DNA of 64,000 nt from Parcubacteria group bacterium. Its GTDB lineage: Bacteria; Patescibacteriota; Minisyncoccia; Moranbacterales; UBA2206. Shown here one piece after another: positions 31,213 through 61,758 of the stretch. Position numbers and translations under genes: made by a program. The stretch's first letter is position 1. Each line of letters begins with the position of its first letter. The stretch lies in the NCBI GenBank assembly GCA_041659505.1, contig JBAZYF010000003.1, positions 86,026 to 150,025 on the forward strand, written 5' to 3'. The notes beneath the pieces were generated by a model. That model had not been told where the DNA came from, did no database searches, and saw nothing but the letters and a program-made list of their open reading frames with translations.

Positions 31213-31440
31213 TCAGTAAACATAAACTTCAATATCCGCTTCATCCAGCAAAACTGCCTTAAGCATGCCGGACAACTGTTCCTCCAATCGCTCATGAGAC
31301 AGATATTTGTCCTCTATCGACTTCCGGATGACCATCTCCTCGACATCCTGCTGTTCAAAAAACTTTCTGATCAATGTCTCATTTCCGTTCGCCTTATAGA
31401 CGCGAACCTGCCCGATTTCTCTCGTTACGTGAATAATCAT
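31213..31440 (-). CDS. hypothetical small protein
   Basis: ORF only. Confidence 0.3.
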   Translation of the reverse strand: MIIHVTREIGQVRVYKANGNETLIRKFFEQQDVEEMVIRKSIEDKYLSHERLEEQLSGMLKAVLLDEADIEVYVY

Positions 31441-31758
31441 TGAATTCCCTCCTGTTGTTTGTGATCCATCTTAGAGAAATTAAAGAACAAAAAACCCGCT
31501 GTTGGCGGGTTTTGGTTTATTTCGAAAGGATAACTTCATCGAACCATTTTCCTCTTCGCTTCAAGCCAAAATTCGCCAACATAAAGTCGGGACCCGGATC
31601 CGGAACATGTTGACCAAATATTGGTTTTGACTTGGCGATTTAGGCTCATAAAACTATCAAAATTATTTATAATAAAATATTACCACGCGACAATATTTTG
31701 TCAATAAAATATCTTACACCATTACTGAATCCTGTTCACTGATCAGTGTTCTCTGTTA

Positions 31759-31855
31759 TTCATTCCACCACCGCCTTAATCCTCCTCACACCCGCCGAAG
31801 AGCTTTCTTCTTTTTGGATGCGGAATTTGCCTTTGATTTCGGCGGTATTTTTGAT
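31759..31855. repeat. 97-bp direct repeat, copy 1: duplicate of the alaS 3' end
   Basis: Identical to 33315-33411, which is the alaS stop codon plus its last ~31 codons. Confidence 0.85.
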
Positions 31856-31884
31856 TGTTGGCCATTTCAATCAAACTTTTCTTG

Positions 31885-33285
31885 CTAATAATTAAAACTG
31901 ATACTTGAGATGATCTCTTCAAATTCTTTTTGCAACTCTGAGTATTTTGCAAAATACTGCGGTTGGCCTAGGCTGATTCTTATTTTTCTTCCATTTACTT
32001 GGGTGTAATAAGCCACTTTCTCAAGTCCTGATTCTTTAAAGTTTTTTATTAAGTAATTATAATTTCCCAATATTTCATTTTTTTCATCGATAACCTGATT
32101 TTGCAAATCCATTCCGTTGTACATCACATCAAAAGAAGGATCTGAAGAATTAGGCACATACATGAACATGAAAGGCTCTGTAAAATTTAATCCATTTATT
32201 TTTTCAAAATCGGAATGCTTTGTTATGACATAAAATTTAGCATATTTTCCTAACTTAATATCTTCAAATGTTAAACCAGTTTCAGTTGGATCTTCAACTT
32301 TGTATTTGTCATTATCTATTTTGAAAGAAATAAATTTATCCGAATAAACGCCTTGATTATCTACGGTCTTCCTCTCTGAAATCTCCACTTTTCCATTTTC
32401 AGAAATTTCATAACTCAAGCCTTCCATTTTTTTTGAATCTTTCAGAATAAACTCTAAACAATTTTTAATACTACTAGATTCAAAGCCCTCCGCTTCACAT
32501 ATAGCATCTCTAGTTTTTTCCCAATCCGAAAAATTCATATAATTAAATATTGATGTCGGCCAAGCGCTAGAAACCCTAGGATTAAATTCTAACGTACATG
32601 CAGTTTCCACCTCTTTTCCAGGCAATGTTTTTATCAAGATACTGCTGCCCCAAGAACCACTTTCTGCTATTTCGTTATCGCTATACAAATATTTAATATT
32701 ATTCAAGAAATACAACATTATGAGTTGTTTTTTTGGATTTCTTAGATCGCTTTTTAAACTAAGGCCAATCATCGCCTCACGATCAGTCCAATTTTGATTT
32801 TTTTCTTTTTCTGCCACGCATTTATTTATCTGGTGATTAGTTAACACAAATGAAACGGATAGTAATATAATAAAAATACAAACATTCGAAATTAAAATTA
32901 CTCTTTTTGCGATATACTTATCTACTAAATAAATAACCAGTCTAGAAAAAACATAAAGCAACCCCAAAGATACTAAAATTGCTATTCCTATAGTTATTAG
33001 ATTAGGAAAAGATATCATTGTACCTTGCCAGAAGTATAAATCTTCGTTCACATTTTCAGAAAAAATAAAAAATGGAAAGTAGACAATTTTAATAAAGGAA
33101 GTTAAAACTGGATGCCAAAAAACATAAAGGCTAAGATCTGTTAAATAAAAAATTGCTAAAATAACTGCGATAATTGGCCATGCTAATGCAGACCACCTGA
33201 AAATTTTTCTTTTGGGGTCTAATGCGGCATCATCTCCCTGAATATTATTTAAGTTTTCGCCTGCTAAATTTGGGTCTTGTTCCAT
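31885..33285 (-). CDS. polytopic membrane protein, hypothetical (AT-rich insert cargo)
   Basis: Multiple TM helices. Sits between the two 97-bp direct repeats. Confidence 0.4.
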   Translation of the reverse strand: MEQDPNLAGENLNNIQGDDAALDPKRKIFRWSALAWPIIAVILAIFYLTDLSLYVFWHPVLTSFIKIVYFPFFIFSENVNEDLYFWQGTMISFPNLITIGIAILVSLGLLYVFSRLVIYLVDKYIAKRVILISNVCIFIILLSVSFVLTNHQINKCVAEKEKNQNWTDREAMIGLSLKSDLRNPKKQLIMLYFLNNIKYLYSDNEIAESGSWGSSILIKTLPGKEVETACTLEFNPRVSSAWPTSIFNYMNFSDWEKTRDAICEAEGFESSSIKNCLEFILKDSKKMEGLSYEISENGKVEISERKTVDNQGVYSDKFISFKIDNDKYKVEDPTETGLTFEDIKLGKYAKFYVITKHSDFEKINGLNFTEPFMFMYVPNSSDPSFDVMYNGMDLQNQVIDEKNEILGNYNYLIKNFKESGLEKVAYYTQVNGRKIRISLGQPQYFAKYSELQKEFEEIISSISFNY

Positions 33286-33314
33286 TTTTTTTATTTTAAT
33301 TTATTATTCACTTT

Positions 33315-33411
33315 TTCATTCCACCACCGCCTTAATCCTCCTCACACCCGCCGAAGAGCTTTCTTCTTTTTGGATGCGGAATTTGCCTTTGATTTCGGCG
33401 GTATTTTTGAT
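33315..33411. repeat. 97-bp direct repeat, copy 2 (authentic 3' end of alaS)
   Basis: See copy 1. Confidence 0.85.
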
Positions 33412-35256
33412 GTGCGGTCCGCCGCAAATTTCCTTGGAATAATTGCCGATGGAATAAACTTTCACTCGGTCGCCATATTTATGCCCAAATTCACCTTCTG
33501 CTCCAACATTTTTCGCTTCTTCCGGTGTCATTTCCTCCAGCGTCACTTCTGTTTTTGATTCGATCGCCTCGTTGACAAAATCCTCCACCGCCTTTTTCTG
33601 TTCATCAGTCATTTTGTCTGGATGGGAAAAATCAAAACGAATGCGCTCGCCATTAATGTTTGAGCCTTTTTGATGGACGTTTTCTCCCAAAACCTTGCGT
33701 AATCCTGCCAGCATCAAATGAGCAACAGTGTGCAGTTCGGTGGTTTTTTCTTTTGTATCAGAAAGTCCACCTTTAAACATTCCAGCTGAAGCAGTGCGGG
33801 ACAAATCTTGGTGTTTTTTTAATCTGTCATCAAATTTATCCTTTAGCTTAACTTCATCAATATTTATACTTTTATTTTTCAACTCTTCAAACACTAATTC
33901 TAAGGGAAAGCCATATGTTTGATATAAATCAAAAATTGTATCCACGATATCATCATTAGGATATATGGGAGCTATCCGATCTCCTTTTATCCAAAAATTT
34001 CCCTCTTTGTTTTCTAATAACTTGCCAAATCTAGCTATACCACTTTCCAATGTCCTCCTAAATTTCTCTTCCTCTTTTTTTAACTCACTCAAGACTCTCT
34101 CTTGCATAACTTCTGGATAAAACTGCCCATACATTTCTTGTACTACCTTGGCAATTTTAGCGGTAAAGTTACTTTTTATGCCCAGAAGATGCGCCTGACG
34201 AATGGCACGACGGATGAGGCGACGCAATACATAGCCCCGCTCAGTATTGGACGGTTCGACTCCATCGGCAATAATGAATACGCTTGCCTTGATGTGATCA
34301 GCGATAATTCTGGCAGAGCGTTTTTTTTCTTCACTAAGGCTCGCGTACCATTGCTGACGTGGCCTGATTTCTTCAGAAAAAGGAATATTAGGTTCCATTT
34401 TCTGTGGCATAAGAAGTGCAATCTCGTGGAATATTTTTTCAAATAAATCCGTATCAAAAACATTGTCCTTACCCGAAAGAACGGTAATCGTTCTTTCTAG
34501 TCCCATCCCAGTATCCACATTTTGCTGAGCCATTTTCTCGAAACTCCCATCTTCTTTTTTATTAAACTCCATAAACACGTCATTCCAAATTTCCATCAAA
34601 CGGAAACTTTTCACCATTTCATCATGCGTTCCCACAAGTTTTCCCTCAGCCGGTCTCACGTCATAGAACATTTCACTGCACGGTCCGCATGGTCCGGTTT
34701 TTCCGGCTGGTCCCCAGAAATTATCCTCACTACCCAAAAGAAAGATACGACTGTCCTCTTTGGCTTTTTGATCCAATTCGCAAACACCATTACTCAGTCC
34801 CGCTTTTTCAAATTGCTTTTTCCAAATCTCGATCGACTCATCGTCCCGATCTGCTCCCAATTTTTCATCCCCAGCGAAAACTGTCACGCAAATCCTTTTT
34901 GGATCAAGTCCCAGCCACTTTTTGTCAGTTAAAAATTCAAAGCTCCACTCAATCGCCTCTTTTTTAAAATAATCACCCAAAGACCAGTTACCCAACATTT
35001 CAAAAAAAGTCAGATGTCGGTTGTCACCCACATCATCAATGTCCCCTGTGCGGATACATTTTTGCGCATCAACCAATCTTTTACCCAGCGGATGTCTCTC
35101 TCCCATCAGATACGGCACAAGCGGATGCATACCAGCAGTTGTGAAAAGCACGGTTGGATCATTTTCCGGCACCAAGGGCGCTGAAGGAATAATGGCGTGA
35201 CCCTTACTTTTGAAAAAGTCCAGATATTTTTGGCGCAAATCTTTGGCTGTAAGCAT
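33316..35256 (-). CDS. alaS: alanyl-tRNA synthetase, short form (catalytic + tRNA-recognition + editing, no C-Ala domain)
   Basis: N-terminal class II AlaRS motifs (FTTAGMHP, GNWSLGDYFK). Editing-domain HxxxH (HTVAHLMLAGL) and CGGPH. Confidence 0.85.
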   Translation of the reverse strand: MLTAKDLRQKYLDFFKSKGHAIIPSAPLVPENDPTVLFTTAGMHPLVPYLMGERHPLGKRLVDAQKCIRTGDIDDVGDNRHLTFFEMLGNWSLGDYFKKEAIEWSFEFLTDKKWLGLDPKRICVTVFAGDEKLGADRDDESIEIWKKQFEKAGLSNGVCELDQKAKEDSRIFLLGSEDNFWGPAGKTGPCGPCSEMFYDVRPAEGKLVGTHDEMVKSFRLMEIWNDVFMEFNKKEDGSFEKMAQQNVDTGMGLERTITVLSGKDNVFDTDLFEKIFHEIALLMPQKMEPNIPFSEEIRPRQQWYASLSEEKKRSARIIADHIKASVFIIADGVEPSNTERGYVLRRLIRRAIRQAHLLGIKSNFTAKIAKVVQEMYGQFYPEVMQERVLSELKKEEEKFRRTLESGIARFGKLLENKEGNFWIKGDRIAPIYPNDDIVDTIFDLYQTYGFPLELVFEELKNKSINIDEVKLKDKFDDRLKKHQDLSRTASAGMFKGGLSDTKEKTTELHTVAHLMLAGLRKVLGENVHQKGSNINGERIRFDFSHPDKMTDEQKKAVEDFVNEAIESKTEVTLEEMTPEEAKNVGAEGEFGHKYGDRVKVYSIGNYSKEICGGPHIKNTAEIKGKFRIQKEESSSAGVRRIKAVVE

Positions 35257-35295: not shown

Positions 35296-35324
35296 ATTGT
35301 ATAATGCTTAAGCTTCGCAGTCAA
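35296..35324 (-). promoter_or_regulatory. sigma70-like promoter upstream of alaS
   Basis: Minus strand: TTGACT, 17-bp spacer, TACAAT. About 40 nt upstream of the alaS ATG. Confidence 0.4.
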
Positions 35325-40443: not shown

Positions 40444-42333
40444 CTACCCATTGTTATTTTTACTACTATTAATTATATTTCTAATCCCTTCTTTGTCTAA
40501 GTTAAGCTCTTTTTTGGGCGTCTTAAACTTTCTGGGCTCAATATAGGAAATCTGACCGAGACTAATTTTTCCACTATCACGCAAAAGTCCCGCGGGATGA
40601 GAACTGTTCAACTCTTCCCGAACCGCTGAGTGGCTACTTTTCGCTTCATTTCGCACGGCAGGATTGTTCTGTAGCTGCACCTTCGCTCTCGCTCTCTGAT
40701 AGTCTCGCAAGCATTCTTTGCAAAAAGTTTTTCGGCTTGGGTCAGGCTTGAAAGGTACGATTATTTTCTCTTCGCAAGTTGAACAAATTGCTTCAAATAG
40801 TTCTTTCCGCTGTTCATCCTTCTGGATCAAAACTTCTTCTTTTTTTCGCTCATCATTCTGCCTAATTTTGGGCGGGGCTTGACTTTCCCTTGAGACATTC
40901 TCCTCAGGAACAATTCGTTCTTCAATCACTCTTGGCGAAGTCGCAATCGTATTCTCTGCTCGAGCTGGCCTTTGTTCAATCCTAGCGGGACTAGCTGCGC
41001 GCTGATTATTATTAGAAGAATCAAATTCATCAAACCCAAGTCCTACATCCATTCCGCTCCAACGAGCAATTTTTTCCGCCACTTCCAAGCGCGATTTTCC
41101 ATAACGCTCACGCGAAACTGCAATCACTTTTTGCTCTCCATCAATTGTGTCGGAAATGTCAGCTGGAGGCAATGTCCGCGCCGAAAAAGCATCACCGGCA
41201 ATGCCATCAATCATCAGTTTCAAATAAATATCGTATTTAGACAGATTAACAATATCATTCATCAGAAAGACCGGATCAAATTCTTTTTCCAGCGCCTCCG
41301 CATCTTCGGCGCCCACTCGGAAAGAAACTATGGTACCCACATTACCAAAAATCGCATCACGCACGGTGGCATTGCCATCAAAAATTAATTGATTGATGTA
41401 TTGATGCGCTAAAATCAGAGCCAAGCGGTATTTTCTGGCTTCTGAAAGAATGTTAGAAAAAGATTCCGTGGCAAAATTTTGAAATTCGTCAACATAAAGA
41501 TAGAAATCCTTTCGATCATTTTCAGGAATATCCACCCGACTCATTGCTGCCAGTTGAATTTTGGTGATAATCATACCGCCCAAAAGCCGCATCGCATCTT
41601 CACCGATCCGTCCCTTGGAAAGATTGACTATGAGAATTTTCTGATTATCCATAATTTCACGCATATCGATCGTCGATTTTGGTTGCCCAATGATATGGCG
41701 CACCAAGGTATAGGACAAAAATTGTCCGACTTTGTTTTGAATGGCAGCTACAGCTTCTTTTCTGAATTTATCTTCCCATTTGTCAAACTCATTGATCCAA
41801 AAAGCTTTCACGACTGGATCAGTAATTTTTGTATAGACTCTTTTGCGATAATCCTTATCACTCATCATCCTATTCACTCCCAAGAGCGTCGAACCAGGAT
41901 AATCCAAAAGCGCCAAAATCGCATTATTCAAAATATACTCCATCCGCGAACTCCACACGTCCGGCCAGATTTTCTTAAAAACTCCCATCATGCCTGATGC
42001 GACAAGATTCTTTTTATCCTCATCGACTGCTTCCAAAATATTAAAAGCTACCGGAAATTCAGTGTCCGATGGATTGAAATAGACCACGTCATTAATCCGG
42101 TTAGCGGGAACGGCGCGGAGCATCTTCTCGGCAAATTCACCGTGTGGATCAACAACACAAACACCCTTGCCATTGCGGATATCCTGGATCGCCATATTTT
42201 CCAACAAATTAGATTTTCCCATGCCGGTCTTACCGATGATATACATATGCCGGCGACGGTCGTCTTCTTTTATTCCAAAGACCCGCTCTTGATTGCGAAA
42301 ATTGGTTTTGGCGAAAAAATTAATATTAGACAT
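40444..42333 (-). CDS. TraG/TraD/VirD4-family (T4SS coupling-protein-like) ATPase with a C-terminal zinc ribbon
   Basis: Walker A IIGKTGMGKS. Motifs VVDPHGEF and KYRLALILAHQYINQL typical of coupling-protein ATPases. C-terminal C..C...C..C. Confidence 0.5.
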   Translation of the reverse strand: MSNINFFAKTNFRNQERVFGIKEDDRRRHMYIIGKTGMGKSNLLENMAIQDIRNGKGVCVVDPHGEFAEKMLRAVPANRINDVVYFNPSDTEFPVAFNILEAVDEDKKNLVASGMMGVFKKIWPDVWSSRMEYILNNAILALLDYPGSTLLGVNRMMSDKDYRKRVYTKITDPVVKAFWINEFDKWEDKFRKEAVAAIQNKVGQFLSYTLVRHIIGQPKSTIDMREIMDNQKILIVNLSKGRIGEDAMRLLGGMIITKIQLAAMSRVDIPENDRKDFYLYVDEFQNFATESFSNILSEARKYRLALILAHQYINQLIFDGNATVRDAIFGNVGTIVSFRVGAEDAEALEKEFDPVFLMNDIVNLSKYDIYLKLMIDGIAGDAFSARTLPPADISDTIDGEQKVIAVSRERYGKSRLEVAEKIARWSGMDVGLGFDEFDSSNNNQRAASPARIEQRPARAENTIATSPRVIEERIVPEENVSRESQAPPKIRQNDERKKEEVLIQKDEQRKELFEAICSTCEEKIIVPFKPDPSRKTFCKECLRDYQRARAKVQLQNNPAVRNEAKSSHSAVREELNSSHPAGLLRDSGKISLGQISYIEPRKFKTPKKELNLDKEGIRNIINSSKNNNG

Positions 42334-42346
42334 TTATGTATGTTAA

Positions 42347-43624
42347 TTATTCAACTGGTAAATTAGATGGAGCTGCTCCCAGCTTGGAAGTCGTCTGAGT
42401 TATCGCATGTGATTTGACTGACAAATCTGGAAAATGAAACATTGTTGCTAATTCCTTTGTGGAAAATAACATATTGACTCCGTCCGTATTTCTCCGACGA
42501 TAGCGGTCATAAATTTTTCTTTTACGAAAATTAGAAATCCGCTGAGTAAAAAAACCTGTTCCATAGGTCTTACTAATATCTTCGGGCTTGACTTGATTCA
42601 TATTAAGATCGTTAAACTGCTTTATTGCCCCACTAAACGCACTGACAAAAGATTTATCAAAAACATCTCTTTTTCCTAGAACGATCAGGCGCATCTTAGT
42701 TTTGAAAAAATTCTTACCTAAATTTTCCTCTACTGCTTTCAAGACCTCCCTTTCAATCGGAGAGAGCCTAGTGTCAAGCGGCAACTCATCTTTTTTCTTG
42801 GCCAACTCTTTAAATTCCGGCGGACCAAAAACCCCGGGGAAAATATTAAAAAATACGTCTTTAATATCATGCCACAACCTTCCTTCGGTAACGGCTACTG
42901 GTCGACCTTTTAATGTATTCGCCAATGCCTCACCGCCTTTTATCGACTCCCCTTCCTGCACTGGCACTAACATATATTGCAACCAAATATGTTGCCCCGG
43001 TCCGAGCGCTCCCATCACCTCTACCATCGCCGCCATCGGGTCAATCATTTCGCCAGTAATACTTTCTTCAAACTGATCGTAGGTCTTAATTGGATAGTAA
43101 GGCTCTTTTTTTACAAACTCATAATCCGCCCCCCAAAGATCCCAATTGCGATTAGGAATGACTTTCGGAAACTTATTATAATAATCTTCGACTTCCAAAA
43201 TTTGTGCCTCAGGATATTGCGCATAAATCTGAGCTTCAATCAAATTGCGATATTTCTTCAAGAGCCGAAAATAGAAATGCACACTGCCTTCCTCGCCGAC
43301 CAACTCTACTCCAAACGGATCCTGGCGATATGCACCATTAAGCCAAACATCAAAATTATTATGCGTCGTCATTACGCCAGTCATTCCGGCGTAGATAATT
43401 TCCATCGGCTTGGGACCGCGCTCGATGTCGCGAGGCGGAATCACTTCCAGGATTGTCCATTTATATTTCGAAAACCAAGAATCGCTTGAATAAATAGCGA
43501 CGTAATCCTTCCAAACAATCCCAAAGATATACCAGACTGGTACCGGCAGTATCAACCACCAAGAAGTAGCGAAAACGCTTCCGAAAGTATTTAAAATATC
43601 AAAAGTATTTACAGAACCATCCAT
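42347..43624 (-). CDS. membrane-anchored hypothetical protein adjacent to the coupling-type ATPase
   Basis: N-terminal TM (WWLILPVPVWYIFGIVW). Confidence 0.35.
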   Translation of the reverse strand: MDGSVNTFDILNTFGSVFATSWWLILPVPVWYIFGIVWKDYVAIYSSDSWFSKYKWTILEVIPPRDIERGPKPMEIIYAGMTGVMTTHNNFDVWLNGAYRQDPFGVELVGEEGSVHFYFRLLKKYRNLIEAQIYAQYPEAQILEVEDYYNKFPKVIPNRNWDLWGADYEFVKKEPYYPIKTYDQFEESITGEMIDPMAAMVEVMGALGPGQHIWLQYMLVPVQEGESIKGGEALANTLKGRPVAVTEGRLWHDIKDVFFNIFPGVFGPPEFKELAKKKDELPLDTRLSPIEREVLKAVEENLGKNFFKTKMRLIVLGKRDVFDKSFVSAFSGAIKQFNDLNMNQVKPEDISKTYGTGFFTQRISNFRKRKIYDRYRRRNTDGVNMLFSTKELATMFHFPDLSVKSHAITQTTSKLGAAPSNLPVE

Positions 43625-43686
43625 TGTAATTTTTATTTTAGATAAATATAGCCCATGATTCCTCCCTTTGGAAAAGGGGGAGAAAA

Positions 43687-44748
43687 CTATCTCCTTAATC
43701 TATATCCACTGCCCACTTTTTCAAAATTTTTGCCATTGAGGTTGATCATGATCGTAGTCCGTTTCACCTTGCGTACTTCAAAAACTTTTTGCACAATTTC
43801 TTCTCGATCCAAGGGTTTTTCGCTCTTCGCTAAAATATCTTTAAGCACATCCTTCACTGCTCCACCGAAATAGCCCCACTCGCCCAAAGCATAGATGCCT
43901 CGGCCGATCAGCACAAATCGCTCATCCTTGATTAGTTCATTGTGGATCGTTTGCGGATGCACCTTCTTCGTTCCCAGCTTATATTTCTCGATCAATTTCG
44001 CAATCTGGGTAAAATGCAATGGCGCTTTTTCTTCTTTTAAAACCAGATAGATCTTTTCACGACTGCCTTTCGGACTGACTTCGGGCCAATTGCGCATCCC
44101 CCATTTGCCAAATTTGTTTTTCTTAACTCCAGAAAGGACATTCAAATAACACAAAACGTCTTTCTTGGAAAATTCCGGCAAACGTGTCACCAACTCTTTG
44201 GAAATCTGATCATCACTGAGCAGCTGCTTATTTTTCGACAGCATTTCCTCGGCAGCTTTTGCCACTTTCAAAACTTTTTCCAAAACATTTTCGGCGGTCA
44301 CCCAAGACCGTTCAATTCTGTTCTTGTGGGCAATGGCTTGGATCTTTTGGGAATAACTAACCAAAAAACGCATCGCGTTTTCTTCTTTCTTTGATCCATC
44401 AGGATTCAGCTCGGTCAGAATTTCCTCTTCCCTGATTATACCACATTTTTTTTCAACTGCCAAAAATAATTGGTTTTCCGCTTTTTGAAAATCTGCTTCT
44501 TCGCAAATCTTTCCGATGCTCTTTTTGGCATCAGAAATGATCTGGCGCACCCGCTCCCTAGTTATGCTATAGTCAGAGCCGATCTTTTCTAAGGTTTGGA
44601 CGGAAAAATCGCCCATAAGACCAAAACGTTTTTTCAGAATCTCTTGTGCTCTTTGGGGCAATTGGACTAAGATTTTTTCGGCGACATCAAAAAAGGAGTT
44701 CTTTTCTCCAATTTGCGAATTATTGCGCTTATTTGTGTTTTCCACCAT
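43687..44748 (-). CDS. DNA-binding protein with a sigma-70 region-4-like HTH
   Basis: SITRERVRQIISDAKKSI resembles the sigma70 r4 HTH. Confidence 0.35.
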   Translation of the reverse strand: MVENTNKRNNSQIGEKNSFFDVAEKILVQLPQRAQEILKKRFGLMGDFSVQTLEKIGSDYSITRERVRQIISDAKKSIGKICEEADFQKAENQLFLAVEKKCGIIREEEILTELNPDGSKKEENAMRFLVSYSQKIQAIAHKNRIERSWVTAENVLEKVLKVAKAAEEMLSKNKQLLSDDQISKELVTRLPEFSKKDVLCYLNVLSGVKKNKFGKWGMRNWPEVSPKGSREKIYLVLKEEKAPLHFTQIAKLIEKYKLGTKKVHPQTIHNELIKDERFVLIGRGIYALGEWGYFGGAVKDVLKDILAKSEKPLDREEIVQKVFEVRKVKRTTIMINLNGKNFEKVGSGYRLRR

Positions 44749-44846
44749 CGTTTTTGCCTTAAATTAAGTTATTTTCGACTTCCAGAAATACTAGCACATA
44801 ATCAATTAATTTGTCAAGCCTCCGACCCCTGTGGTACTCTTGAGGA

Positions 44847-45929
44847 ATGAAATATCTCCATGCATTGAATAAAATTGAAGGCGTCGGAACACAAAGACTA
44901 AAATTACTCCTGGCTGAATTTGGCACAGCCCAGAATGCTTGGCAGGCCAGTCTTTCCGATTTGCAAAAAGCGCTGGGCGGAGATATCTTGCCGGAACGGA
45001 TTTTTTTTGAAAAACAAAGAATTGATCCGGACGCGGAATGGGAGCAAGTGGAAAAATCCAACATTCAGGTGATCGATTTTTTGAGTCCAAGCTATCCCAA
45101 ACTGCTCAAAGAAATCCACAGCCCGCCCTATCTCATTTATACTCGGGGAAATTTAGTTTTTGATTCCACGCCCGCCATTGCTATTGTCGGCTCACGAAAA
45201 TTTTCTAATTATGGCGAACAACTGGCTAGCACCTTTGCTCGTGATTTGGCAAAAGCCGGTTTTGTCATCGTAAGCGGTCTCGCGCTGGGTATCGATGCCA
45301 TTTCACATCGCAGCACGCTAGAAGCGAGAGGCAAAACGATTGCGGTTCTTGGCGGAGGGATTGACAATGAAACCATCTATCCGCGCGCTAATTATAATCT
45401 CGCTCAAGAAATCATCTCCAGTGGCGGAATCGTCATGAGCGATTATCTACCAGGCACGCCCGCTACCGCCGCAACTTTTCCCGCCAGAAACAGAATTATT
45501 GCTGGTCTCGCACTTGGCACGCTTGTCGTGGAAGCTGGAGAAAAAAGTGGAACATTGATTACAGCTAAAATGGCACTGGAAAGCAACCGCGAAGTTTTTT
45601 CCATCCCCGGTTCAATTTTCTCCCCCACTTCCATCGGCACCAACAACCTCATTAAATCCGGCGCCAAAATGGTCACTTGCGTGCAAGATATCCTGGAAGA
45701 ATTCGATCTTTCGCAGAGCCTGACAGAAACAAAACAAGCCACACTCAAATTGCCGGAAAACAAAGAAGAAGAAATTCTCCTCACAATCCTATCTGACGTG
45801 CCGCTCCACATCGACAATATTGCCAAGCAATCAAAACTCTCAGTATCAGCAATTTCAGCCACACTAATGATGATGGAAATCAAAGGCTGGGTAAAAAATC
45901 TCGGCGGGCAGAATTATATTCTTTTGTAA
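44847..45929 (+). CDS. dprA: DNA processing protein DprA (Smf)
   Basis: Rossmann-like DprA core (IAIVGSRK...GLALGIDAISH...GGGID). Confidence 0.85.
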   Translation: MKYLHALNKIEGVGTQRLKLLLAEFGTAQNAWQASLSDLQKALGGDILPERIFFEKQRIDPDAEWEQVEKSNIQVIDFLSPSYPKLLKEIHSPPYLIYTRGNLVFDSTPAIAIVGSRKFSNYGEQLASTFARDLAKAGFVIVSGLALGIDAISHRSTLEARGKTIAVLGGGIDNETIYPRANYNLAQEIISSGGIVMSDYLPGTPATAATFPARNRIIAGLALGTLVVEAGEKSGTLITAKMALESNREVFSIPGSIFSPTSIGTNNLIKSGAKMVTCVQDILEEFDLSQSLTETKQATLKLPENKEEEILLTILSDVPLHIDNIAKQSKLSVSAISATLMMMEIKGWVKNLGGQNYILL

Positions 45930-48315: not shown

Positions 48316-48324
48316 CATCCATAT

Positions 48325-48480
48325 CCCCTTCGCCCTTAGGGAGAAGGTGCCCGAAGGGCGGATGAGGGAAAGGGCATTACATTAAGATAAAACTAACTTT
48401 ATTTAGATTTTATCCTAACCCAAAGCCCTTGCCCTCACCTGTCACGTGCTCGTGACATCCTCTCCCGAAGGGCGAGGAGG
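48325..48480. repeat. ~155-bp palindromic intergenic element (family copy A) with ~50-nt imperfect terminal inverted repeats
   Basis: Left arm ccccttcgcccttagggagaaggtgcccgaagggcggatgagggaaagggc. Right arm is its imperfect reverse complement. Near-identical arms recur at 61604-61758. Confidence 0.7.
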
Positions 48481-54868: not shown

Positions 54869-54928
54869 ACAAAAAATATTCTTGTCGCAGGAACGAGCTA
54901 GCAAATTAGTGTCGCCCGCCTTTTGGCA

Positions 54929-54951
54929 GGAACGGGTTTGTAACCCGTTCC
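54929..54951. repeat. REP-like hairpin copy 1 (ggaacgggtt-NNN-aacccgttcc)
   Basis: Perfect 10-bp stem; also at 55504-55526 and 56613-56635. Confidence 0.7.
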
Positions 54952-54990
54952 GCATAGCTTACAATCTTTTTTAGCTTATCAAAACAAAAA

Positions 54991-55494
54991 ATGCCTTCGG
55001 TAAAAATACACAAAGAGTTTAGCTCAGGAACTTATTTCCTCACTTTTAGTGTTAAAAATCTTTATTACTTCTTCGATCAATATTATCGGTGGAATATCCT
55101 AGCTGATTCGCTAAAATATTGCCAAAAAGAAAAGCAACTAAAGATCTATGCTTTTGTGTTTATGCTAAATCATCTCCATCTAATAGCTAGCTCACCAGAT
55201 GTTTCTGGTTTTGTTTGCGATTTCAAAAAATTTACTTCAAAAGAATTTCACAGAAACATTGAAAGCACAGAACCCAATGTGCTGAAATTATTTTTAGACG
55301 CCGATGGAAAATATGAATTTTGGGAAAAAACCAATATGCCGAAAATAATCGAAACCGAGGAATTTTATTTGCAAAAAGTAAATTACATCCACAACAATCC
55401 AGTGAAGAAAAATTATGTCACTGAACCGGAGCACTGGCATTGGTCGAGCGCAAATCCGCACTGTGAAATTACGCCTAATAAAATTTATAGCTAG
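54991..55494 (+). mobile_element. IS200/IS605-type Y1 HUH transposase (RAYT-like)
   Basis: HuH motif MLNHLHLIA. Conserved downstream Tyr region (YIHNNPVKKNYV). Flanked by REP-like hairpins. Confidence 0.6.
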
Positions 55495-55552
55495 TAAACT
55501 AAAAGGAACGGGTTGCAAACCCGTTCCTGCTGTTGGATGCGACAATAATTCC
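55493..55552. repeat. REP-like element copy 2 (~60 nt, direct orientation relative to copy 3)
   Basis: aaactaaaaggaacgggttgcaaacccgttcctgctgttggatgcgacaataatt against copy 3 at 56602-56661 (~8 mismatches). Confidence 0.65.
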
Positions 55553-55560
55553 TAGAAGAC

Positions 55561-55830
55561 TTACTTCTCCAACTCTTTAAGTAATTCGATCTCCTTATTG
55601 ACTAATCTTTGCCACAAAATTTTGTCATTTTTTACTATCGATTCCTCCTTTGCTCGATAAATATCCACTAAGTTCTCAAGAAAGTCGGGATTGTCTTCTA
55701 ATAAAGCGACGAGCTCACATAGCTGATTATCATTAGCTTGGGACAGCAAATTAATCATATACTCTCTATTATTTTCAGACAGAGAGGAATTCATCATTAA
55801 GTTTATACCTTTTTCTGTATTTGTTGCCAT
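55561..55830 (-). CDS. hypothetical protein
   Basis: ORF between REP copies 2 and 3. Confidence 0.3.
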   Translation of the reverse strand: MATNTEKGINLMMNSSLSENNREYMINLLSQANDNQLCELVALLEDNPDFLENLVDIYRAKEESIVKNDKILWQRLVNKEIELLKELEK

Positions 55831-55831
55831 A

Positions 55832-56509
55832 CTATTTAGATTTGAATAAGTTATCTATTTTAATCTGAATTGTATGATCTTTTTCGTCATTTAAACTAAT
55901 CTTGCTCTTTTTCGGGAGAACATTTCTACCATCACTCGTAAGATCCTGTGCTAATGGATGAGCAATAAAAAAATTTCCAAGATTGGTTCTGAAAGATTGA
56001 CTACCTCCATCTGAATAAATCTCTGCTTCATTAATTTCCGCCACTTTTCCACCAACAACAATCTTATAACTTTTCAAATCAGCCTTTCTCCATAATTCAG
56101 CAACTTTCATAAAATCAGCATCTTTTATTTTTTTCTGATATTCGACATCATCCTCTCTCTGATAATTCGTTTTATATATTTCAAATGGTATTTTTCCGTC
56201 AATAGTTCCAGAGATTAGAAGCTGTAATTGCTCTTTGGATTCAACTTTAGTGGCCATTTCTCCAGCTATTGCAGATTTTGTTTCAATGGCAACATGCCCC
56301 ATTGATGAACTAACTATAAGGGTGCCCAAAACAAAAGCGCGCATAAGTTTAGAGGCTCTAAGTCCTCCGAGACTAGCTCTTTTTAAAACTTCTTCCTCAT
56401 AAGTTAAAAAATTCTCAACGCCCCCTACTGATTGAAATTCGACAAAATCCCCACTCTTTTCCTTGCGCATATCTCCGCCACCCAATACAAACACCTGTTC
56501 CATTTTCAT
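55832..56509 (-). CDS. hypothetical protein
   Basis: ORF between REP copies 2 and 3; 1-nt gap to the downstream gene. Confidence 0.3.
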   Translation of the reverse strand: MKMEQVFVLGGGDMRKEKSGDFVEFQSVGGVENFLTYEEEVLKRASLGGLRASKLMRAFVLGTLIVSSSMGHVAIETKSAIAGEMATKVESKEQLQLLISGTIDGKIPFEIYKTNYQREDDVEYQKKIKDADFMKVAELWRKADLKSYKIVVGGKVAEINEAEIYSDGGSQSFRTNLGNFFIAHPLAQDLTSDGRNVLPKKSKISLNDEKDHTIQIKIDNLFKSK

Positions 56510-56601
56510 AAGATTATAAAACTATTTAATTTATCAATTATATATAACCTAGCATTTTTTCGAGATCAGGGCAAGCCAACCCGCTCCCTCCGATGGTCCT
56601 T

Positions 56602-56661
56602 ACAAACTAAAAGGAACGGGTTACAAACCCGTTCCTGCAATTAGATGCGGTAATAAATTTC
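56602..56661. repeat. REP-like element copy 3
   Basis: See copy 2. Confidence 0.65.
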
Positions 56662-61601: not shown

Positions 61602-61603
61602 TT

Positions 61604-61758
61604 CCCCTTCGCCCTTAGGGAGAAGGTGGTCGAAGGCCGGATGAGGGAAAGGGCTTTTGATAAAATTATTACTTTCCTACGCAGAACATTTTTATTTTTT
61701 TAGCATTACCCTTGCCCTCACCTGTCCTTCGGACATCCTCTCTCGAAGGGCGAAGAGG
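61604..61758. repeat. ~155-bp palindromic intergenic element (family copy B)
   Basis: Arms 48/51 identical to copy A. The central ~60 nt are unrelated. Confidence 0.7.

What the first reader, a model, noticed from the sequence alone, without database searches (positions are those of the whole stretch)
31759..33411. Perfect 97-bp direct repeat duplicating the alaS 3' end, bracketing a 1.46-kb AT-rich single-gene insert
31759-31855 equals 33315-33411 (alaS stop plus last ~31 codons). The 1459 bp between them carry only one AT-rich polytopic membrane-protein gene. Direct repeats that regenerate the 3' end of a target gene are the hallmark of site-specific integration (attL/attR). No integrase is present, so this may be a degraded integrative element or a tandem-duplication/recombination scar. 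The plus-strand ORF 33277-33558 is an artefact of this region.
Basis: seen in the sequence. Interest (0 to 1): 0.6.

Follow-up and report, generated by a model that had tools for sequence, protein, structure and literature searches.

The report
Single-gene cassette inserted at alaS end
A foreign, AT-rich 1.5-kb piece of DNA carrying one membrane-protein gene sits in the tail of the alanyl-tRNA synthetase gene of an uncultured Parcubacteria bacterium, bracketed by two identical 97-base copies of that tail; near-identical strains lack it exactly, so it is a real gain/loss polymorphism of a small element that has no recombinase of its own.

Summary
Window 31759-31855 and 33315-33411 are identical over 97 nt, where chance expects none. 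The repeat (R) is the last 31 codons of alaS, its TGA and one more base. Between the copies lie 1,459 bp at 30% GC (window 40%) with one promoterless 466-aa gene.

It is not an assembly artefact. Two contigs from other samples are 99.9-100% identical to the window but lack exactly one 1,556-bp unit (insert plus one R). At least two long contigs carry the filled form.

No integrase, transposase or terminal inverted repeat lies in the insert. No tyrosine or serine recombinase was found among the window ORFs of 150 aa or more.

The cargo belongs to a tiny orphan family: 17 hits among 1.84 billion representative proteins. Its members are always low in GC and sit in unrelated places. One is bracketed by 58-83-nt direct repeats next to a GIY-YIG cassette. 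One lies between inverted transposase-gene ends. Others have no repeats.

Best reading: a non-autonomous, att-flanked mini-element, gained and lost by recombination across R using functions supplied in trans. The enzyme is unresolved (trans recombinase or host homologous recombination). Moderate interest: a clean example, not a new principle.

The parts
33316..35256 (-). alaS (alanyl-tRNA synthetase, 646 aa), the target gene. It is intact because the proximal repeat supplies its last 31 codons and the stop.
   Evidence: Pfam tRNA-synt_2c 3.4e-130 and tRNA_SAD 6.7e-16. 160 relatives align through residue 645-646.
33315..33411 (-). Proximal copy of the 97-nt repeat R (attL-like): alaS codons 616-646, TGA and 1 nt.
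   Evidence: Exact identity to 31759-31855.
31856..33314 (-). Insert of 1,459 bp at 30.3% GC. There are 30 nt between the alaS stop and the cargo ATG, then the cargo ORF, then 29 nt of 3' spacer. It has no terminal inverted repeats, and its end sequences are unique in the window.
   Evidence: It is absent, together with one R copy, from L002 and L172.
31885..33285 (-). Cargo gene of 466 aa. The N-terminal membrane domain carries the motifs FWHP..L, YFPFF..PE and PNxITIG. The extracytoplasmic alpha/beta domain has conserved Cys156 and Cys230. There is no promoter-like site between the alaS stop and its ATG, so it is probably transcribed by read-through from alaS.
   Evidence: No hit in Pfam, PHROGs or PADLOC. 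17 hits in 1.84 billion representatives. Alignment. AF2 pLDDT 74.8. Only weak PsbP/DcrB/MTC28-like fold hits, E about 3e-3. Promoter scan.
31759..31855 (-). Distal copy of R (attR-like): a non-translated duplicate of the alaS 3' end, followed by the native downstream DNA.
   Evidence: In the empty-site contigs the single R is joined to this same downstream sequence.
31441..31758 (-). Native spacer between alaS and the 75-aa gene at 31213-31440. It holds a promoter-like site (31704-31677) and a hairpin terminator (31513-31491). It is contiguous with alaS in the empty-site strains.
35296..35324 (-). Promoter-like site upstream of alaS (TTGACT-17-TACAAT). It is the likely source of the transcript that reads into the cargo gene.
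   Evidence: This is a consensus match only.

Best explanation
A 1,556-bp foreign unit is integrated in the 3' end of alaS in a Parcubacteria genome. The unit is one promoterless membrane-protein gene plus a second copy of the last 97 nt of alaS. It is a non-autonomous, att-flanked mini-element: it encodes no recombinase, and it is present in some near-identical strains and precisely absent from others.

Shown:
- the perfect repeats;
- the regenerated alaS reading frame;
- the foreign base composition;
- the exact empty site in two other samples;
- the scattered occurrence of the cargo family.

Inferred:
- The unit was first placed by recombination between the chromosomal alaS end and an identical 97-nt site on a circular form. 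Integrase-type site-specific recombination supplied in trans is the usual source of repeats that regenerate a gene's 3' end.
- It is now lost by recombination between the two repeats. Host RecA-type homologous recombination would suffice for 97 bp.
- It can spread among members of the same species by natural transformation using flanking homology. DprA is encoded in the window.
- The cargo is expressed by read-through from alaS and adds a variable envelope protein.
For: - The exact 97-nt direct repeat is not expected by chance.
- R is exactly alaS codons 616-646, the stop and 1 nt, and it covers part of the tRNA_SAD domain (598-641). The duplication is therefore needed to keep alaS intact.
- Empty site: L002 (ENA ERZ27249449) has no mismatch over 2,302 + 368 nt around the site and one R copy. 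L172 (JGI 3300014208) has 2 mismatches in 3,651 nt and one R copy.
- Filled form: it is on the 216-kb contig the window comes from. The look-up tables also list a 248.8-kb longest contig carrying both proteins. The Logan unitig L004 is the insert plus 30 nt of R on each side.
- Foreign composition: 30% GC against 40-42%.
- No recombinase was found among the window ORFs scanned.
- There is no promoter-like site or terminator between alaS and the cargo.
- DprA lies at 44847-45929.
- Family behaviour: in L086 a homologue (P0006) is bracketed by two copies of a 58-83-nt repeat. A third copy lies upstream and brackets a GIY-YIG gene. This is an accretion-like array, and the two cassettes share 16 nt beyond the target-derived core. 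An independent Logan contig confirms it.
- Background: such repeats (at least 40 nt, at least 90% identity, 300-6000 nt apart) occur in only 4 of about 160 control loci, 1.5 Mb in all.
Against: - No integrase, excisionase or cognate larger element was found. R is absent from 2.9 million viral contigs.
- None of 160 other alaS loci, all 71% identical or less, has a duplicated 3' end.
- R has no significant hairpin or recognisable core-site symmetry.
- Perfect identity over 97 nt is what homologous (Campbell-type) recombination predicts. It is longer than any integrase needs.
- Most family members seen elsewhere have no flanking direct repeats (L005, L089, L177). The cargo is therefore not tied to one insertion mechanism.
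- The rest of the 216-249-kb contig and the rest of the genome were not searched for recombinases.
Confidence: 0.55

Rival explanations
1. Homologous recombination only. The structure arose once through a rare illegitimate or Campbell-type insertion-duplication of a circularised fragment that carried 97 nt of alaS homology. Since then it has been lost by RecA recombination between the repeats and re-acquired by natural transformation. No site-specific recombinase was ever involved.
For: - The repeats are 100% identical over 97 nt, as insertion-duplication predicts.
- No recombinase was found in the window.
- DprA is present.
- Patescibacteria are reported to keep homologous recombination genes and comEC/pili competence genes (PMC12455944).
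- Filled and empty alleles differ by 2 SNPs or fewer in 3.6 kb.
Against: - It does not explain how a foreign low-GC gene first became joined to a 97-nt copy of this species' alaS end.
- The repeat ends 1 nt after the stop codon and starts on a codon boundary. That is the typical gene-regenerating geometry of integrase att sites.
- The L086 array has two different cassettes that share extra sequence beyond the target-derived core. This looks like attP arms rather than random homology.
Confidence: 0.3
2. CIME in the strict sense. The insert is the decayed remnant of a larger integrase-bearing island, ICE or prophage that integrated into the alaS 3' end. Internal deletions then removed everything except one cargo gene.
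For: - It has attL/attR-like repeats and no integration or transfer genes. This matches the published definition of a cis-mobilizable element (PMC5704250; PMC6323972).
- A VirD4/TrwB-like coupling protein is encoded 7 kb away, at 40444-42333.
Against: - One complete gene is left, with only 30 and 29 nt to the repeats on either side. Deletion end-points this tight on both sides are unlikely.
- No integrase pseudogene fragments are seen: the insert is filled by the single ORF.
- No related full-length element was found at alaS in 160 loci or in viral contigs.
Confidence: 0.1
3. Assembly artefact. The duplication comes from a collapsed or mis-joined repeat, or from a free 1.56-kb circle wrongly threaded into the chromosome.
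For: Short-read metagenome assembly. At k=31 the insert forms a separate unitig bounded by R (L004).
Against: - The filled contig carries MEGAHIT's k141 name. A k of 141 exceeds the 97-nt repeat, so junction-spanning k-mers should exist (inference from the contig names).
- Independent assemblies give the filled form (216 kb, with 248.8 kb listed as the longest contig) and the empty form (L002, L172).
Confidence: 0.03
4. The insert is an integron-type gene cassette, or a transposon whose target-site duplication is 97 bp long.
For: It is a single promoterless ORF with minimal flanks and a 97-nt repeat unit, which is in the size range of attC (57-141 nt). The L086 array of repeat-gene-repeat-gene-repeat looks superficially like a cassette array.
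Against: - No IntI, attI or any integrase was found in the window.
- R is coding sequence of the target gene, not a cassette-borne imperfect palindrome.
- The single-strand fold of R has z = -1.2, which is not significant.
- No GTTRRRY core lies at the boundaries.
- There are no terminal inverted repeats and no transposase. By my own recall, 97 bp far exceeds known target-site duplications.
Confidence: 0.02

Closest known systems
Cis-mobilizable elements (CIMEs), such as those at the 3' end of fda in Streptococcus thermophilus (example recalled from memory; definition from PMC5704250 and PMC6323972)
   Same: [quoted passage not shown] It has no integration or transfer genes. It lies at the 3' end of a housekeeping protein gene. 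Tandem accretion is seen in the related locus L086.
   Different: It holds only one gene (1.46 kb). No cognate ICE or IME with the same specificity is known. The repeat is 97 nt and perfectly identical. The host is an uncultured Parcubacteria bacterium. Derivation from an ICE or IME is not shown.
Tyrosine-integrase genomic islands and prophages that integrate into the 3' end of tRNA, tmRNA or protein genes
   Same: The direct repeat regenerates the 3' end of the target. An exact empty site exists in sister strains. The insert has foreign base composition.
   Different: There is no integrase next to the att site or anywhere in the window. The element is far below the size of an autonomous element.
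Microcin H47 genomic island of E. coli (PMC3191183, PMC5426353)
   Same: It is a small island flanked by extensive direct repeats. It encodes no recombinase, so its mobility is parasitic on host functions.
   Different: H47 is 13 kb with imperfect repeats, and its RecA-independent excision and integration were shown by experiment. Here nothing is tested experimentally, and the repeat is part of a coding gene.
Integron gene cassettes
   Same: It is a promoterless single ORF with very short flanks, expressed from an upstream promoter. The recombination-site-sized repeat recurs between cassettes in L086.
   Different: There is no IntI, attI or attC structure. The repeat is derived from the target gene.
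Campbell-type insertion-duplication by single-crossover homologous recombination (own knowledge)
   Same: It produces an insert bracketed by two perfect copies of the homology segment, and it reverts by recombination between them.
   Different: It needs a circular donor that already carries host sequence. It is known mainly from laboratory constructs and plasmids, not as a natural route for a single foreign gene.

Membership tests
Integrase-bearing integrative element (island or prophage) | Tyrosine or serine recombinase gene inside the element, usually next to one att site | tested here: not met
   The insert holds one ORF with no Pfam, PHROGs or PADLOC hit. No recombinase domain was found in any window ORF of 150 aa or more.
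Integrase-bearing integrative element (island or prophage) | Direct repeats (attL/attR) that regenerate the target gene's 3' end, with an empty attB in related genomes | tested here: met
Integrase-bearing integrative element (island or prophage) | Circular excised form with an attP junction (insert-R-insert) | not testable with these tools
   This needs the raw reads. The Logan unitig L004 ends 30 nt into R on both sides, which is uninformative.
CIME (cis-mobilizable element) | [quoted passage not shown] | tested here: met
   This holds for structure only. Definition from PMC5704250.
CIME (cis-mobilizable element) | Derived from, and mobilised in cis by, an ICE or IME with the same att specificity | tested here: inconclusive
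   No such element was found at 160 alaS loci or in viral contigs. No close relatives above 71% identity were available apart from the same strain.
Integron gene cassette | attC: a cassette-borne imperfect inverted repeat that folds as single-stranded DNA, with GTTRRRY cores | tested here: not met
   R is alaS coding sequence. Its ssDNA fold has z = -1.2. No core motif lies at the boundaries.
Integron gene cassette | IntI, attI and Pc platform upstream | tested here: not met
   alaS lies upstream, and no integrase was found in the window.
Transposon / IS | Transposase, terminal inverted repeats and a short target-site duplication | tested here: not met
   There is no transposase in the insert, and its ends are not inverted repeats. 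The duplication is 97 nt.
H47-type integrase-less island | Extensive flanking direct repeats and no recombinase gene of its own | tested here: met
   Definition from PMC3191183.
H47-type integrase-less island | Excision and integration in a RecA-deficient host | not testable with these tools
   This is an experimental test.

The most novel reading that the evidence does not exclude
Patescibacteria may carry a class of integrase-less, single-gene 'target-end' cassettes. Each would be a promoterless accessory gene that inserts into the 3' end of an essential gene or ncRNA gene, copies that end as a 60-100-nt direct repeat, is expressed by read-through, can stack in tandem (as in L086), and is moved by a dedicated trans-acting recombinase or by competence-linked recombination. 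That would amount to an integron-like cassette system without an integron platform.
Probability: 0.12. Interest if true: 0.7.

Novelty: new variant of a known kind. Interest (0 to 1): 0.4.

Why it matters
This is a base-pair-exact example of very recent gene gain or loss in an uncultured, genome-reduced Patescibacteria lineage, a group in which mechanisms of horizontal transfer are mostly inferred statistically. The unit is about as small as such an element can be: one gene plus one repeat. It carries no recombination enzymes. It therefore shows that these organisms can vary an envelope protein between strains using only functions supplied in trans or host recombination.

If more cassettes like this one and the one in L086 exist, they would define a cassette-type route of accessory-gene flux at the ends of essential genes.

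In practice, the 97-nt repeat is a site where short-read assemblies of this lineage will break or collapse.

Tried and rejected
- Assembly artefact: rejected, because both forms appear in independent assemblies.
- alaS 3' end as a general integration hot spot: 80 GTDB species representatives and 80 metagenome loci, all 71% identical or less, show no duplicated alaS end. The metagenome scan returned no close relatives, so it says nothing about sister species.
- Phage or plasmid origin: R, the L086 repeat and the cargo family are absent from viral contigs. The cargo is absent from INPHARED phages and PLSDB plasmids.
- Recombinase in the window: none found. The only transposase-like protein is an IS200/RAYT-like gene 21 kb away with its own REP hairpins.
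- attC-like folding of R: not significant.
- Other copies of the cassette ends in the window: none.
- Identity of the L086 repeat: no Rfam hit even at E = 10.
- GIY-YIG gene in the window: none.
- The L114 27-nt repeat next to alaS is a REP-like or terminator-like hairpin, not an att site.

Full report
**Observation.** Window 31759-31855 and 33315-33411 are identical over 97 nt. The match reaches 100 nt with one mismatch. It is the longest repeat in the window. Shuffled sequence gives no matches.

alaS lies on the minus strand at 33316-35256 and encodes 646 aa. It matches Pfam tRNA-synt_2c at 3.4e-130 and tRNA_SAD at residues 598-641. The repeat (R) begins on a codon boundary. It comprises codons 616-646, the TGA stop and one further base.

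The 1,459 bp between the copies hold one ORF, 31885-33285 on the minus strand, of 466 aa. Only 30 nt separate the alaS stop from its ATG. Only 29 nt separate its stop from the distal R. The insert is 30.3% GC, against 39.8% for the window and 41.8% for alaS. GC3 is 26.6% in the cargo and 39.9% in alaS.

**Is it real?** The window is part of ENA contig ERZ27247358:k141_536199, 216 kb long. The look-up tables list 248,828 bp as the longest contig carrying the same alaS and cargo proteins. NCBI names them as proteins of a Parcubacteria group MAG, MFA5961984.1 and MFA5961983.1.

Two contigs from other samples show the empty site:
- L002 (ENA ERZ27249449, 3.1 kb) is identical to the window across alaS and the downstream spacer. 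It lacks exactly one 1,556-bp unit. Its only other differences are one SNP at window 31484 and a 1-nt indel at 31487.
- L172 (JGI 3300014208, 3.65 kb) has 2 mismatches in 3,651 nt and a single R joined to the native downstream DNA.

A Logan unitig, L004, equals the insert plus 30 nt of R on each side. That is what a k=31 graph produces at a repeat. The ENA contigs carry MEGAHIT's k141 prefix. A k of 141 exceeds the 97-nt repeat, so junction-spanning k-mers should exist; this is my inference from the contig names. The duplication is therefore a true presence/absence polymorphism between near-identical strains, not an artefact.

**Anatomy and expression.**
- A promoter-like site lies upstream of alaS at 35324-35296.
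- No promoter-like site or terminator lies between alaS and the cargo.
- The native spacer downstream of the distal R carries a promoter-like site (31704-31677) and a hairpin terminator (31513-31491), ahead of a 75-aa gene.
- The cargo is thus most simply expressed by read-through from alaS.
- The insert has no terminal inverted repeats.
- R has no significant single-strand fold, with z = -1.2.
- The cassette ends occur nowhere else in the window.

**Recombinases.** No tyrosine or serine recombinase domain was found in any window ORF of 150 aa or more. The only transposase-like gene is an IS200/RAYT-like ORF at 54991-55494, which has its own REP hairpins. DprA (44847-45929) and a VirD4/TrwB-like ATPase (40444-42333) are present.

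**The cargo.** It has no hit in Pfam, PHROGs or PADLOC. An exhaustive HMMER search of 1.84 billion representative proteins found 17 relatives. The family shares the following:
- an N-terminal membrane domain with the motifs FWHP..L, YFPFF..PE and PNxITIG;
- an invariant Cys156 and Glu225;
- a nearly invariant Cys230.

The AlphaFold model (pLDDT 74.8) shows about four long N-terminal helices followed by an alpha/beta domain. Foldseek against the PDB gave only weak matches to PsbP, DcrB, MTC28 and Eag-type folds, with E about 3e-3. I read it as a variable envelope protein of unknown function.

**Where relatives sit.**
- L005: between a GHMP kinase (ispE-like) gene and an ispG-like gene (my reading of its N-terminus). 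No repeats.
- L089: between a peptidase M16 gene and a TP_methylase gene. GC is 25-35% against 42-51% in the flanks. No repeats.
- L177: after a mazE-like gene. No flanking direct repeat.
- L173-L176: seven contigs, all under 2 kb, from several assemblers. All four examined end in inverted repeats of up to 200 nt that hold the 3' end of a transposase-like ORF. That ORF is 61% identical to annotated transposases, E = 3e-11.
- L086: three direct copies of a repeat (58 nt shared by all three copies, up to 83 nt between copies 1 and 2) at 76-158, 471-553 and 2139-2221. They bracket first a 104-aa GIY-YIG gene and then the cargo homologue P0006. The third copy is followed by a terminator hairpin. 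The Logan contig L087 confirms the second cassette independently.

In L086 the repeat is the 3' half of a long hairpin. By my inspection of the aligned copies, it shows one compensatory G-C to A-U change. It is probably the end of an unidentified ncRNA gene, with no Rfam hit. Its two cassettes share 16 nt beyond the target-derived core, which resembles a shared attP arm.

As a control, I looked for direct repeats of at least 40 nt and at least 90% identity, spaced 300-6000 nt apart. They occur in only 4 of about 160 unrelated loci, 1.5 Mb in all. Two repeat-bracketed members among about six informative contexts is therefore notable. The family as a whole behaves as a frequently transferred, low-GC accessory gene that uses more than one vehicle.

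**Is the alaS end a general target?** Among 160 alaS loci from GTDB species representatives and metagenomes, all 71% identical or less, none has a duplicated 3' end. R and the cargo are absent from viral contigs, phages and plasmids. No cognate integrase-bearing element was found.

**Mechanism.** Firmly shown: a precise 1,556-bp unit is present or absent between strains that differ by 2 SNPs or fewer in 3.6 kb. Either recombination between the two R copies (loss) or recombination of an R-bearing circle with the chromosomal R (gain) accounts for this.

The geometry is the classic signature of integrase-type integration: the repeat ends 1 nt after the stop codon and regenerates a domain-coding 3' end. 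I take that as the most likely origin, with the enzyme supplied in trans. The element then resembles a cis-mobilizable element (definitions in PMC5704250 and PMC6323972). It also resembles the integrase-less microcin H47 island (PMC3191183 and PMC5426353).

Perfect identity over 97 nt is equally what Campbell-type homologous recombination predicts. RecA-type recombination would suffice for loss. Patescibacteria are reported to retain homologous recombination and competence genes (PMC12455944). Sequence alone cannot separate these two. Decay from a larger element is possible, but the 29-30-nt flanks make it awkward. Integron-cassette and transposon models fail their defining features.

**Verdict.** The insert is a real, recent, non-autonomous single-gene insertion at the alaS 3' end of a Parcubacteria bacterium. 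It is a small, clean variant of known att-flanked integrase-less elements. It is not a new principle unless the L086-type arrays prove to be widespread.

Noticed in passing
L086:76-2221 (ENA ERZ23491094 scaffold_26480): Three direct copies of a repeat (58 nt shared by all three, up to 83 nt between copies 1 and 2) bracket a 104-aa GIY-YIG gene and then a homologue of the cargo gene. The repeat is the 3' half of a long hairpin, followed by a terminator after the third copy, so it is probably the end of an unidentified ncRNA. The 3' end of the GIY-YIG gene (385-420) is an 80% inverted copy of the start of the repeat.
   Followed up: partly
L173-L176 (JGI 3300025010, ENA ERZ27254730 and others): The cargo homologue P0010 is found only on contigs under 2 kb (seven in all). 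The four examined end in inverted repeats of up to 200 nt (95-98% identity) that hold the 3' end of a transposase-like ORF. The gene seems to lie between two inverted IS copies, like a composite transposon.
   Followed up: partly
window 54926-56656: An IS200/RAYT-like Y1 transposase gene (54991-55494) lies beside tRNA-Leu(CAA). REP-like hairpin repeats (GGAACGGGTT..AAACCCGTTCC) sit at 54926-54967, 55489-55548 and 56604-56656. The last two bracket an unannotated 225-aa ORF.
   Followed up: no
window 48324-48394 and 61603-61673: A 71-nt GC-rich repeat (85% identity) sits directly after the stop codons of topA and of a LytR_cpsA_psr gene. It may be a structured intergenic element.
   Followed up: no
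window 225-24109: A defence or prophage-remnant island holds DUF2326, DUF2726, Schlafen/AlbA_2, AAA_13, GmrSD_N-HNH, an EcoRI-type methylase, a terminase gpA ATPase, and ParB-N6 and C5 methylases. A LOOT RNA (RF03000) lies at 225-358 on the minus strand.
   Followed up: no
window 31484-31487: The only differences between the filled window and the empty-site contig L002 outside the cassette are a SNP and a 1-nt indel. Both lie beside the terminator hairpin at 31491-31513.
   Followed up: no
L006 (JAVEQZ010000080.1, Moraniibacteriota MAG): The closest species-level alaS relative (71% identity) lies on a contig that ends 10 nt after alaS. This could reflect a repeat or a polymorphism at the same place, but nothing can be concluded from it.
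   Followed up: no
window 40444-45929: A VirD4/TrwB-like coupling ATPase with a DUF87 domain (40444-42333), a neighbouring DUF8128 gene, and DprA (44847-45929) lie within 7-13 kb of the cassette. These are possible DNA-transfer or DNA-uptake functions.
   Followed up: no
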